This document shows positions 26,728 through 27,115 of a stretch of DNA of 64,000 bases, piece by piece. The notes below the pieces were generated by a model, which was given only the letters and a program-made list of their open reading frames with translations, was not told where the DNA came from and searched no databases. Origin of the DNA: Escherichia coli (GTDB lineage Bacteria; Pseudomonadota; Gammaproteobacteria; Enterobacterales; Enterobacteriaceae); assembly GCF_030013205.1 (NCBI RefSeq), contig NZ_CP122648.1; one strand, written 5' to 3'. Positions within the stretch are counted from its first letter, which is position 1. Each line of letters opens with the position of its first letter. The translations under genes and the position numbers were made by a program.

Positions 26728-27115
26728 TCCTCACCTGCTGCACAGTGAAAATTTATGAAGTTAATAACAATATGATTTTAAATGTATTTTTAAGTACTCA
26801 CTTTTTAATCCTTATATATACGCAAAAGTGAGGTAAATAGTTAAGTTTTAGTTAATATCTTGCATGGTGTGTTTTTTAACCTACCTGTTATTTTTATTAC
26901 CTCATTTCTATTAACTCACCATTCCTCACTTTTGTTCCTCACTTTTTGTTATTCCCGTCCTGCTCCTCACCTGTTTTTCTTGTTGTTGTAATGTCTTGTT
27001 TTACAATATGTTTTTCATTCCTCACTTTTTGACCTATATACAGGTGAGAAAGTGAGGAGTGGCGTTGATTTTTTGTTAAATTACCCGCCATCCTCACTTT
27101 TGCTCCTCACTTTTT
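26728..27115. repeat. iteron-type replication origin (about 10 copies of TCCTCAC(T)TTT in both orientations within AT-rich DNA)
   Basis: Direct copies at 26728, 26796 (ACTCAC), 26923, 26936, 26964, 27019, 27091 and 27104. Inverted copies at 26824-26833 and 27049-27058. No ORFs. Lies immediately 3' of the replicase gene. Confidence 0.75.

What the first reader, a model, noticed from the sequence alone, without database searches (positions are those of the whole stretch)
26728..27115. Iteron-type origin immediately 3' of the replicase gene
About ten copies of TCCTCAC(T)TTT in both orientations are spread over roughly 390 bp of ORF-free, AT-rich DNA. The last copy overlaps the replicase stop codon. 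A replicase followed directly by its iteron origin is the standard SaPI/PICI and P4-like layout. The motif and spacing define the replicon specificity of this island.
Basis: partly seen in the sequence, partly recalled or inferred. Interest (0 to 1): 0.5.

Follow-up and report, generated by a model that had tools for sequence, protein, structure and literature searches.

The report
Replication origin of a phage satellite island
The repeat cluster is real and is almost certainly the replication origin of a 13-kb phage-inducible chromosomal island (a phage satellite) in pig-pathogenic E. coli; this kind of origin is already described, so it is a correct but fairly ordinary find.

Summary
Observation confirmed. 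All 5 exact TCCTCACTTTT copies in the 64-kb window lie in 26923-27114. Of 76 matches with up to 2 mismatches, 11 fall in the 466-bp intergenic gap 26648-27113 (P~1e-11). That gap has 33% GC against 51% for the window, and the last copy overlaps the replicase stop codon.

The gap sits in a ~13.2-kb island (about 19552-32736) with the gene order int-alpA-Icd-DUF4222-replicase-repeats-ProQ-PerC. The island occupies the yejM/tRNA-Pro...yejO attachment site used by catalogued Gram-negative PICIs. Its replicase is 90% identical to that of reference PICI EcCI11128.

Two results support an origin:
- In about 68 of 76 related loci with enough downstream sequence, from many Enterobacterales genera, a repeat array follows the homologous helicase directly. 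A conserved ~200-bp plan recurs: an iteron pair on the stop codon, an inverted pair around CTGTATA, an AT-rich spacer, then a further pair.
- The iteron sequence tracks the replicase's C-terminal winged-helix domain. The residue before the predicted recognition helix predicts iteron base 4 in AAGTG-N-GG in 75 of 75 loci (Asn-A, His/Lys-G, Ser-C).

This is a new member of a known kind. Replication and binding were not tested.

The parts
27114..28529 (-). Replicase gene, 471 aa. Residues 1-135 are an N-terminal domain shared with the EcCICFT073 Pri-Rep protein. Residues ~153-390 are an AAA_25 / RSF1010-RepA-like helicase core. Residues ~409-471 are a C-terminal winged helix.
   Evidence: Pfam AAA_25, E = 3e-44. 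phrog_2850 matches over the full length. Closest solved structure by sequence is RSF1010 RepA 1G8Y, E = 3e-5. The N-terminal 135 aa are 63% identical to EcCICFT073 Pri-Rep residues 1-141, and the rest is unrelated. 90% identical to the helicase of reference PICI EcCI11128.
27117..27305 (-). Coding region of the predicted winged-helix, origin-binding domain (residues 409-471). Asn447 (codon 27189-27191) sits immediately before the predicted recognition helix 448-457.
   Evidence: AlphaFold2 model of residues 395-471 has mean pLDDT 85.6 and a helix-helix-helix-beta-hairpin topology. The listed Foldseek matches are overwhelmingly winged-helix DNA-binding domains such as DtxR/IdeR, PcaR, LexA, histone H1 and ORC2, with probabilities mostly 0.9-0.99 and TM-score up to 0.74, but weak E-values. 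The residue at position 447 covaries with iteron base 4 in 75 of 75 loci.
26912..27116 (-). Conserved ~200-bp core origin. It is co-inherited with the helicase 3' end in hundreds of E. coli genomes.
   Evidence: Many E. coli hits begin at window ~26915-26917 and run on into the helicase gene. An alignment of 7 origins shows invariant AAAAGTG.GG cores, an invariant CCTGTATA centre and a variable spacer.
27091..27115 (+). Proximal iteron pair: TCCTCACTTTT at 27091-27101 and at 27104-27114(5), 13-bp period. The second copy overlaps the stop codon 27114-27116.
   Evidence: family D2. The overlap of stop codon and iteron is conserved in the E. coli relatives and in a Klebsiella element.
27019..27058 (.). 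Head-to-head iteron pair around CTGTATATA: TCCTCACTTTT at 27019-27029 (+), AAAGTGAGGA read on the + strand at 27048-27058 (an inverted copy), and a degenerate inverted copy at 27042-27048.
   Evidence: Inverted repeat I3, 83% complementary. As single-stranded DNA it folds at -10.4 kcal/mol, z = -5.2. The CCTGTATA centre is invariant in the E. coli relatives, and its core CTGTATA is kept in Klebsiella pKp_Goe_795-4.
26975..27018 (.). AT-rich spacer of the core origin (~77-80% AT), the candidate DNA-unwinding element.
   Evidence: AT profile. Nearest-neighbour duplex stability of 40-mers starting at 26970-26990 is among the least stable ~1.3% of the window. An AT-rich spacer occupies the same position in all relatives.
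26913..26974 (+). Distal iteron set: degenerate TCCTCACCTGT at 26964-26974, a pair of TCCTCACTTTT at 26936-26946 and 26923-26933 (13-bp period), and a degenerate third copy CTCACCA at 26913-26919.
   Evidence: The same single-plus-pair-plus-third arrangement is seen in the relatives.
26648..26911 (.). Extra ~265-bp extension found in only a minority of relatives. It holds a second iteron-TATATA-inverted-iteron module (TACTCACTTTT at 26795-26805 on the + strand, and ACCTCACTTTT on the - strand at 26824-26834). Degenerate copies lie at 26728-26738 and 26899-26909. It also contains the least stable DNA of the locus (26739-26794, ~85% AT).
   Evidence: (I1, I15). The 40-mer at 26753-26792 is the second least stable in the whole 64 kb. 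Only 22 of 666 E. coli genomes cover at least 80% of the query that spans the whole intergenic gap and the helicase 3' end. In PapRG-04-4 (L083) the iterons in the extension carry the same A-to-G change as that locus's core origin.
28526..28825 (-). DUF4222 gene, always found immediately upstream of the replicase and overlapping it. It probably belongs to the replication module, but its role is unknown.
   Evidence: Pfam DUF4222. 70% identical to the gene upstream of EcCICFT073 Pri-Rep. Present upstream of the replicase in every E. coli relative inspected.
19552..32736 (-). The whole island (~13.2 kb), a phage-inducible chromosomal island. Its direct att repeats, CGTATAGCT(T/A)AACGTGTAGCTAAAAA, lie at 19552-19577 and 32710-32735. 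The integrase is at 31403-32644 and alpA at 30697-30903.
   Evidence: EcCI11128 and EcCIATCC25922 occupy the same chromosomal site, and the integrase is 83% identical to both.

Best explanation
The repeat cluster is the vegetative replication origin of a Gram-negative phage-inducible chromosomal island (PICI).

Proposed mechanism, all inferred:
1. After helper-phage induction and excision, the island expresses its 471-aa replicase.
2. The replicase's C-terminal winged-helix domain recognises the 11-bp iterons, AAAAGTGAGGA on the gene-sense strand. Asn447, at the start of the recognition helix, probably reads the A at iteron position 4 of GTG-A-GG.
3. Multiple replicase molecules bound to the two iteron sets and to the head-to-head pair around CTGTATATA load the RSF1010-RepA-like hexameric helicase onto the AT-rich spacer (26975-27018) and melt it.
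4. Because no primase domain was detected, priming and DNA synthesis would fall to host or helper enzymes.
5. The iteron sequence together with the winged-helix variant defines the replicon's specificity class.

Shown here: the repeats and their enrichment, the conserved architecture across relatives, the covariation with the winged-helix domain, and membership of the island in the PICI family.

Inferred: DNA binding, melting, helicase loading and the source of priming.
For: 1. Enrichment and composition of the repeats.

2. Island identity:
- The gene order is int-alpA-YlcI/YnfO-Icd-DUF4222-replicase-repeats-...-PerC. This is syntenic with EcCICFT073, whose pri-rep-ori was shown experimentally to replicate a plasmid (PMC6092414).
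- The island uses the same att site as EcCI11128, a catalogued PICI, and its helicase is 90% identical to that island's.

3. Conserved architecture:
- In about 68 of the 76 loci that had enough downstream sequence, from Xenorhabdus, Pantoea, Serratia, Pectobacterium, Kosakonia, Morganella and others, the 500 bp after the helicase stop codon hold a non-homopolymer 7-mer repeated 4-10 times. Control windows inside the gene gave 2-4.
- The E. coli origins share one ~200-bp plan.

4. Concerted evolution. All copies within an origin change together: GTGAGGA here, GTGGGGA in EcCI11128 and L084, GTGAGTA in L086, GTGCGGC in the Klebsiella and Kosakonia elements.

5. Covariation. The residue before F-x-R-W-L pairs with iteron base 4 as N-A in 28 loci, K-G in 27, H-G in 11 and S-C in 9, with no exception in 75 loci. 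There are at least 10 state changes on a tree of the helicase core. The window and EcCI11128 differ at only 4 of the last 60 residues, including N447H, and differ A versus G in the iterons.

6. The C-terminal domain is confidently predicted as a winged helix, and residue 447 sits at the N-terminal end of its recognition helix.

7. An AT-rich, low-stability spacer lies between the iteron sets.

8. A 16,971-bp circular Klebsiella record, pKp_Goe_795-4, is a PICI-like element with the same replicon type. This shows such elements can be recovered as episomes.
Against: - There is no experimental evidence for this replicase type. The published functional test used EcCICFT073, whose replicase core is a primase/D5-type protein, not AAA_25. 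Only the N-terminal 135 aa are shared.
- No primase domain was detected in the replicase, and no primase gene was found among the neighbouring island genes examined. The source of priming is therefore unexplained.
- No DnaA box, IHF site or GATC cluster was found.
- Because the helicase core and the winged-helix-plus-origin unit recombine as modules, the covariation proves linkage between that domain and the iterons. It does not isolate residue 447.
- The least stable DNA lies in the non-conserved extension, not in the conserved core.
- The full-length AlphaFold2 model is poor (mean pLDDT 62).
Confidence: 0.87

Rival explanations
1. The repeats are operator sites. The replicase's winged-helix domain, or another island regulator such as AlpA or PerC, binds them to control read-through or transcription of the downstream ProQ-PerC-NUDIX genes. 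They are not a site of replication initiation.
For: The array lies between co-directional genes, so transcription must cross it. Winged-helix domains are typical of repressors. From general knowledge, plasmid iterons often double as autoregulatory sites.
Against: No sigma-70-like promoter and no terminator was found in the gap. The array keeps its position after the replicase gene whatever gene follows it: ProQ here, a small ORF plus SSB in most relatives, and other genes elsewhere. An AT-rich spacer flanked by iteron sets matches the experimentally tested PICI origin layout. A regulatory role could also coexist with origin function.
Confidence: 0.05
2. The region was a true origin but is now an inactive relic in a decaying island. 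The repeats are then historical and not functional in this strain.
For: The neighbouring Icd-like gene is annotated as a partial pseudogene. A related locus, L083, keeps the repeats beside a truncated helicase. The island lacks recognisable capsid genes.
Against: The 471-aa replicase ORF is intact and is 99.5-100% identical across the region in several ETEC genomes. The invariant helicase motifs are kept. All strong iterons are intact with canonical spacing, and the integrase, alpA and both att repeats are present.
Confidence: 0.05
3. The repeats are a packaging signal (a pac site or cosB-like array) recognised by a small terminase or a redirecting protein.
For: PICIs do carry cos or pac sites (PMC6092414). 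Arrays of short repeats are typical of cosB and pac sites.
Against: The repeat sequence covaries with the replicase's own DNA-binding domain, not with any packaging gene. The array is tied to the replicase stop codon. A separate, different repeat cluster (TTGACACTT, 20521-20775) lies next to a protein with a terminase-small-subunit-like N-terminal helix-turn-helix, and is the better packaging-site candidate.
Confidence: 0.02
4. The region encodes the 50-52-aa protein annotated by RefSeq (26939-27091/7, - strand), and the repeats are incidental to that gene.
For: PGAP annotates WP_001372362.1 here. A frame stays open across the origin in several relatives.
Against: The sense strand is purine-rich and T-poor, so open frames are expected by composition. 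The start codon lies inside an iteron and is absent in relatives. The frame is cut to 32-41 codons in L086 and L087. The concerted iteron changes are non-synonymous in that frame. Most relatives have no CDS annotated here.
Confidence: 0.01

Closest known systems
EcCI11128, a reference Gram-negative PICI of E. coli O111:H- 11128 (Fillol-Salom et al. 2018, Table S1)
   Same: Same chromosomal site (yejM/tRNA-Pro ... yejO). The integrase is 83% identical and the RepA-family helicase 90% identical. Both have DUF4222 upstream and the same ~200-bp origin plan directly after the stop codon.
   Different: Its iterons are AAAAGTGGGGA and its recognition-helix residue is His, against AAAAGTGAGGA and Asn here. 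It has no 265-bp extension. Its downstream cargo is a small terminase subunit and a capsid gene rather than ProQ, NUDIX, DUF2213 and a lytic transglycosylase. AlpA is only 66% identical.
EcCICFT073 pri-rep-ori, the experimentally validated Gram-negative PICI replicon (PMC6092414)
   Same: Same gene order (int-alpA-YlcI-Icd-...-DUF4222-replicase-ori-...-PerC). The origin lies immediately 3' of the replicase, with paired and inverted iterons around an AT-rich stretch. DUF4222 is 70% identical and the replicase N-terminal ~135 aa are 63% identical.
   Different: The rest of the replicase is a 584-aa 'DNA primase family protein', unrelated to the AAA_25 core and winged helix here. Its iterons are CTGTCTACC/GGTAGAYA. 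It integrates at a different att site, between ycfD (roxA) and phoQ.
SaPI Rep-ori (Staphylococcus aureus pathogenicity islands)
   Same: As summarised in PMC6092414, SaPIs share the layout: the origin lies directly 3' of rep, with two iteron sets flanking an AT-rich region, and the rep-ori segment is enough for plasmid replication. From general knowledge, specificity resides in matching Rep and iteron variants.
   Different: Different host lineage. No sequence homology was tested here. SaPIs have divergent regulatory genes and a separate or fused primase.
Satellite phage P4 alpha protein with ori and crr
   Same: From general knowledge, P4 is a satellite replicon whose helicase-containing initiator carries a C-terminal winged-helix origin-binding domain that recognises short iterons. 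The island also shares P4-like accessory genes: a P4-family integrase, an AlpA/Vis-like regulator and an Icd-like gene.
   Different: No primase domain was detected. The helicase is AAA_25/RepA type. There is no second, distant cluster of the same iterons to act like crr. The iteron sequence is unrelated.
RSF1010 (IncQ) RepA helicase
   Same: It is the closest solved structure by sequence for the ATPase core (1G8Y, E = 3e-5) and belongs to the same Pfam family, AAA_25.
   Different: From general knowledge, IncQ plasmids use a separate initiator (RepC) and primase (RepB'). Here the origin-binding winged helix is fused to the helicase, and no RepC or RepB homologue was seen in the island.

Membership tests
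Gram-negative PICI replication origin (Fillol-Salom et al. 2018) | The origin lies immediately 3' of the replication-initiator gene. | tested here: met
   The first iteron overlaps the replicase stop codon at 27114-27116. The same holds in the relatives.
Gram-negative PICI replication origin (Fillol-Salom et al. 2018) | Two sets of iterons flank an AT-rich region. | tested here: met
   The proximal set (27019-27115) and the distal set (26913-26974) flank the 44-bp, ~77-80% AT spacer at 26975-27018.
Gram-negative PICI replication origin (Fillol-Salom et al. 2018) | The host element is a PICI: about 10-15 kb, a unidirectional int-alpA-...-rep module, a PICI-specific att site, and PerC-type accessory genes. 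| tested here: met
   The island is 13.2 kb with all core genes on the - strand. The integrase, AlpA (Pfam Phage_AlpA) and PerC are present. The att site is the yejM-luxR site listed in Table S1 of the paper and is shared with EcCI11128 and EcCIATCC25922.
Gram-negative PICI replication origin (Fillol-Salom et al. 2018) | The rep-ori fragment drives autonomous replication, and deleting rep or ori abolishes it. | not testable with these tools
   This was shown only for EcCICFT073. Indirect support: a Klebsiella PICI-like element with the same replicon type is deposited as a closed 17-kb circle.
Gram-negative PICI replication origin (Fillol-Salom et al. 2018) | A helper phage induces excision, replication and packaging. 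| not testable with these tools
   No helper phage was identified and no experimental data are available.
Iteron-type origin with a cognate initiator (general) | The repeats are binding sites of the adjacent initiator, so repeat sequence and initiator DNA-binding domain co-vary. | tested here: met
   Residue and base are associated in 75 of 75 loci, and the copies change in concert within each origin. Physical binding was not tested.
Iteron-type origin with a cognate initiator (general) | DnaA boxes or IHF sites lie adjacent to the iterons, as in many theta plasmids. | tested here: not met
   The only hit was one 1-mismatch DnaA-like 9-mer at 26703. There was no IHF consensus and no GATC. This feature is not a requirement of the PICI/SaPI type of origin.
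P4-type replicon (alpha, ori, crr) | The initiator is a primase-helicase fusion. | tested here: not met
   Pfam detects only AAA_25. The N-terminal domain matches part of a PHROG annotated 'DNA primase', but no primase catalytic domain was detected.
P4-type replicon (alpha, ori, crr) | The origin is bipartite: the same iterons occur at two sites several kb apart. | tested here: not met
   No second cluster of the motif exists in the island or the window. The cluster at 20521-20775 has a different motif, TTGACACTT.
IncQ/RSF1010 replication system | A RepA-type (AAA_25) hexameric helicase is present. | tested here: met
   Pfam AAA_25, E = 3e-44. 1G8Y, E = 3e-5.
IncQ/RSF1010 replication system | A separate RepC initiator and RepB' primase act at oriV. 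| tested here: not met
   No such genes were found among the island's proteins. The DNA-binding domain is fused to the helicase.

The most novel reading that the evidence does not exclude
A one-residue, one-base recognition rule may set PICI replicon specificity. The residue at the N-terminal end of the replicase's winged-helix recognition helix (Asn447 here) reads iteron position 4 in AAGTG-N-GG: Asn with A, His or Lys with G, Ser with C. Islands would then switch replicon (incompatibility) class by a single amino-acid change plus concerted conversion of about 8 iterons. That would let several related PICIs coexist and replicate independently in one cell; E. coli genomes carry up to 5 related copies. 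The extra iteron/TATATA module and the very unstable DNA in the 265-bp extension might be a second, auxiliary initiation or loading site.
Probability: 0.45. Interest if true: 0.45.

Novelty: new member of a known kind. Interest (0 to 1): 0.3.

Why it matters
This annotates the origin and replicase of an uncatalogued PICI in porcine ETEC strains. It also shows that the RepA-helicase type of PICI replicon, catalogued but not dissected in the papers read here, follows the same origin plan as the tested EcCICFT073 replicon. The comparative data give directly testable predictions: which ~200 bp are the minimal origin, which 60-70 residues bind it, and which single residue may set specificity. Those predictions could help in building orthogonal PICI-based delivery vectors or in predicting which co-resident satellites are compatible. 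It does not change the general picture of how satellites replicate.

Tried and rejected
- Near and distant DNA searches of the phage collection with 26600-28600 found nothing useful: no match, then one weak Salmonella hit. The element is not a catalogued phage.
- An exact-match search for att repeats of at least 12 nt between the island ends found none. The repeats were found only after using the att sequence published for this site, because they differ by one base.
- The Rfam scan of the island gave only the tRNA and sub-threshold chance hits. The microRNA-like matches are caused by the iteron palindrome. The idea of an sRNA or antisense RNA linked to the adjacent ProQ gene is therefore not supported.
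- The promoter and terminator scan of the gap found no promoter, and found terminator-like sites only outside the gap.
- The full-length AlphaFold2 model was poor (pLDDT 62) and its Foldseek search gave only weak RecA/RadA-like hits. Only the C-terminal domain model was usable.
- A full-text search for the iteron strings returned only unrelated eukaryotic papers.
- The DnaA, IHF and GATC scans were negative.
- I considered whether the TTGACACTT cluster at 20521-20775 is a P4-crr-like second origin half. I rejected this because the motif differs and the cluster lies beside a protein with a terminase-small-subunit-like helix-turn-helix.
- Two accessions (AE014075.1, NC_011745.1) were not in the collections.
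Full report
**1. The observation**

The region 26400-28700 was read directly. The exact 11-mer TCCTCACTTTT occurs five times in the 64-kb window, all between 26923 and 27114. With up to two mismatches there are 34 matches, against 15.7 +/- 3.6 in shuffles. The core CTCACYT has 24 matches in the window, 11 of them within 26730-27112. Scoring CCTCACTTTT with up to 2 mismatches, 11 of 76 matches fall in the 466-bp intergenic gap 26648-27113, which is 0.7% of the window (binomial P = 1.1e-11).

Both orientations occur. The gap has 33% GC, against 51% for the window. The last copy (27104-27114/5) overlaps the replicase stop codon at 27114-27116. One reservation is that the region is not strictly ORF-free. 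Mechanical ORFs of 43 and 52 aa exist, and RefSeq annotates a 50-aa hypothetical protein inside it.

**2. Where the window comes from and what the element is**

The segment is 100% identical to the chromosome of porcine ETEC strains such as ETEC4079. The annotated neighbourhood shows a ~13-kb insertion between yejO and tRNA-Pro/yejM, with its core genes all on the - strand:
- integrase (31403-32644)
- an AlpA-family regulator (30697-30903; Pfam Phage_AlpA)
- YlcI/YnfO, on the opposite strand
- an Icd-like remnant
- a hypothetical gene
- DUF4222
- a RepA-family helicase (27114-28529; Pfam AAA_25, E = 3e-44)
- the repeat-bearing gap
- ProQ/FinO
- PerC
- NUDIX
- DUF2213
- a 679-aa lytic transglycosylase

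Fillol-Salom et al. 2018 (PMC6092414) describe Gram-negative PICIs with this unidirectional int-alpA-...-rep-ori organisation and with PerC-type accessory genes. [quoted passage not shown] They also showed that the EcCICFT073 pri-rep-ori fragment maintains a plasmid, and that rep or ori deletions impair this.

Their Table S1 lists several PICIs at a 'yejM-luxR' site, with att TTTGTAGTTATACGTTTGTAGTTATACGG. A one-mismatch direct repeat of a variant of that sequence, CGTATAGCT(T/A)AACGTGTAGCTAAAAA, bounds the island at 19552-19577 and 32710-32735.

Two listed reference PICIs occupy the same site:
- EcCI11128 carries a RepA-family helicase 90% identical to the window's and an integrase 83% identical.
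- EcCIATCC25922 carries the alternative primase-type replicase.

**3. Relation to the validated replicon**

In EcCICFT073 the order DUF4222 - replicase - 288-bp gap is the same. DUF4222 is 70% identical. The replicase N-terminal ~135 residues are 63% identical, but the remainder is unrelated: a primase-family protein there, AAA_25 plus a C-terminal domain here. The EcCICFT073 gap carries a different iteron (CTGTCTACC / GGTAGAYA) in pairs and in inverted copies around an AT-rich stretch.

The window therefore carries an alternative replicase-plus-origin cassette in the same slot. Locus L083 even shows a truncated RepA-type helicase with its repeats lying beside a primase-type replicase, which is a trace of cassette replacement.

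**4. Comparative test of the origin hypothesis**

A protein search found thousands of homologues. An alignment of 14 of them shows mosaicism. The last ~75 residues stay nearly identical among E. coli variants whose N-terminal and helicase parts are only 60-75% identical.

Eighty loci from species-representative genomes were fetched. In about 68 of the 76 loci with enough downstream sequence, the 500 bp after the helicase stop codon hold a non-homopolymer 7-mer repeated 4-10 times. Control windows inside the gene gave 2-4.

The repeat differs by clade but keeps an AAGTG core:
- AAAAGTGAGGA in Xenorhabdus and Rosenbergiella, as in the window
- AAGTGCGGCA in Kosakonia, Enterobacter, Kluyvera and Phytobacter
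- AAGTGGGGGA in Serratia, Pectobacterium and Morganella
- AAGTGGGGA in Pantoea

Within E. coli, 666-1101 genomes carry relatives. Most matches start at window ~26915. This shows that a ~200-bp core (26912-27116) is inherited together with the helicase 3' end, while the sequence beyond it is exchangeable.

Seven E. coli origins align into one plan, read in gene sense:
- an iteron pair with 13-bp period that overlaps the TAA stop codon
- a ~30-bp spacer
- an inverted iteron, an invariant CCTGTATA, then a direct iteron
- a ~45-bp AT-rich spacer
- one degenerate copy, then a pair, then a third partial copy

All copies in one origin change together: GTGAGGA here, GTGGGGA in L083-L085 and EcCI11128, GTGAGTA in L086/L087, GTGGGCA in L088. 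Concerted change across 6-8 dispersed copies is what is expected of binding sites for a single co-evolving protein.

**5. The binding domain and a candidate specificity residue**

AlphaFold2 on residues 395-471 gives a confident model (mean pLDDT 85.6) with a three-helix plus beta-hairpin topology. Nearly all of the listed Foldseek matches are winged-helix DNA-binding domains, including DtxR/IdeR, PcaR, LexA, histone H1 and ORC2 (probability mostly 0.9-0.99, TM-score up to 0.74), although the E-values are weak for so small a domain. The ATPase core's closest solved relative by sequence is the RSF1010 RepA helicase (1G8Y, E = 3e-5).

The residue immediately before the conserved F-x-R-W-L of the third helix is Asn447 here (codon 27189-27191). 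It predicts the base N in AAGTG-N-GG without exception in 75 loci: Asn-A 28, Lys-G 27, His-G 11, Ser-C 9. On a neighbour-joining tree of the helicase core, the residue state and the base state each change at least 10 times.

Because the winged helix and the origin move together as a module, this demonstrates linkage of that domain with the iterons rather than proving the role of one residue. However, the window and EcCI11128 differ at only four of the last 60 residues (N447H, S457N, A462V, Y467D) and differ A versus G in the iterons. Asn with adenine and His/Lys with guanine are chemically conventional pairings (general knowledge).

**6. Other features**

The core spacer 26975-27018 is 77-80% AT. 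Forty-base windows starting at 26970-26990 are among the least stable ~1.3% of 40-mers in the window.

The window has an extra ~265 bp (26648-26911). Only 22 of 666 genomes cover at least 80% of the query that spans the whole intergenic gap and the helicase 3' end. The extension holds a second iteron-TATATA-inverted-iteron module (26795-26834), further degenerate copies, and the second least stable 40-mer of the whole 64 kb (26753-26792). In L083 the extension's iterons carry the same A-to-G change as that locus's core, so they appear to be under the same constraint.

The head-to-head module at 27012-27064 can fold as a hairpin in single-stranded DNA (-10.4 kcal/mol, z = -5.2). That may simply reflect two-fold symmetric binding.

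No sigma-70-type promoter, terminator, DnaA box, IHF site or GATC was found in the gap. No Rfam family matched.

A closed 16,971-bp circular Klebsiella record, pKp_Goe_795-4, is a PICI-like element with integrase, AlpA-like, capsid and terminase genes. It has the same replicon type and the same origin plan, with AAGTGCGGCA iterons and a Ser residue. Its central element keeps the CTGTATA core (ccCTGTATAc). This shows that such elements can be recovered as episomes.

**7. Interpretation**

The best-supported reading (about 0.87) is that 26912-27116, probably together with the extension down to about 26728, is the island's origin of replication. It would be recognised by the winged-helix domain fused to the RepA-type helicase, which would assemble on the iteron sets and open the AT-rich spacer. 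No primase domain was detected, so priming would depend on host or helper functions. The roles of the shared N-terminal domain and of DUF4222 are unknown.

The rivals are each weakly supported, for the reasons given in their entries:
- operator-only function (0.05)
- an inactive relic (0.05)
- a packaging site (0.02)
- a small protein gene (0.01)

**8. Comparison, novelty and verdict**

The element meets every sequence-testable criterion of a Gram-negative PICI origin and is a close relative of a catalogued PICI, EcCI11128. It works like the SaPI and EcCICFT073 origins. It is not a P4-type replicon, because no primase domain and no crr-like second iteron site were found. It is not an IncQ system, because the binding domain is fused to the helicase and there is no RepC or RepB.

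The finding is a correct identification of a known kind of feature in an uncatalogued island. The additions from this analysis are:
- the delineation of a conserved 200-bp core
- the concerted iteron classes
- the residue-to-base association

Interest is modest (0.3). The most novel reading not excluded is a single-residue specificity code that defines PICI replicon classes (probability ~0.45, interest if true ~0.45).

Noticed in passing
window 20521-20775: There is a second, different repeat cluster here. TTGACACTT occurs 5 times in direct orientation and once inverted, all within 255 bp and nowhere else in the 64 kb. It lies just downstream of ORF 20783-21310 (175 aa). That protein's N-terminal helix-turn-helix weakly matches small terminase subunits (phrog_57, E = 5e-7) and Cox-like excisionases. 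The cluster is a candidate pac/cosB-like or regulator-binding array.
   Followed up: partly
window 26105-26647 (- strand): A ProQ/FinO-family RNA-chaperone gene (Pfam E = 6e-24) sits directly downstream of the origin, where most related PICIs carry a small ORF plus an SSB gene. No partner sRNA was detected with Rfam.
   Followed up: partly
window 21362-25415 (- strand): The cargo is unusual for a PICI that lacks capsid genes. It comprises a 679-aa protein with a C-terminal lytic-transglycosylase-like region (phrog_7694 over the full length, with weaker matches to tape-measure and injection transglycosylases). With it are a 205-aa hypothetical protein (phrog_11810), a DUF2213 protein that is weakly like a prohead protease, and a NUDIX hydrolase. 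The last two both match parts of one 545-aa PHROG family, phrog_6216.
   Followed up: no
L083 (E. coli PapRG-04-4, NZ_CP049201.1 3577458-3581139): This locus has a truncated RepA-type helicase, with only the C-terminal ~136 aa left. It still carries its full repeat array and the 265-bp extension, and lies immediately downstream of a primase-type PICI replicase. This looks like a snapshot of replicase-cassette replacement, leaving two origin regions side by side.
   Followed up: partly
L092 (Klebsiella pneumoniae pKp_Goe_795-4, CP018459.1, 16971 bp): This record is deposited as a non-mobilizable plasmid, but it carries integrase, AlpA-like, capsid, head-tail adaptor, terminase and tape-measure genes plus the RepA-helicase/iteron replicon. 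It is probably an excised capsid-forming PICI-like satellite rather than a plasmid.
   Followed up: partly
window 29190-30692 (- strand) and 29756-30061 (+ strand): A 500-codon mechanical ORF has only its last ~55 residues matching Icd-like/repressor families. RefSeq calls only a partial Icd-like pseudogene here, and a YlcI/YnfO gene lies on the opposite strand inside it. The long ORF is therefore probably spurious upstream of the Icd-like part.
   Followed up: no
window 28125-28529 (replicase residues 1-135): The N-terminal ~135-aa domain is shared, at 63-81% identity, between otherwise unrelated PICI replicases of the AAA_25 type and the primase/D5 or DUF5906 type. It also occurs on small E. 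coli 'plasmid' records. It looks like a portable module of unknown function, and a DUF4222 gene precedes the replicase in every locus inspected.
   Followed up: partly
window 26939-27091 (- strand): RefSeq's 50-aa 'hypothetical protein' WP_001372362.1 is annotated inside the origin. It is probably an annotation artefact of the purine-rich iteron strand.
   Followed up: yes
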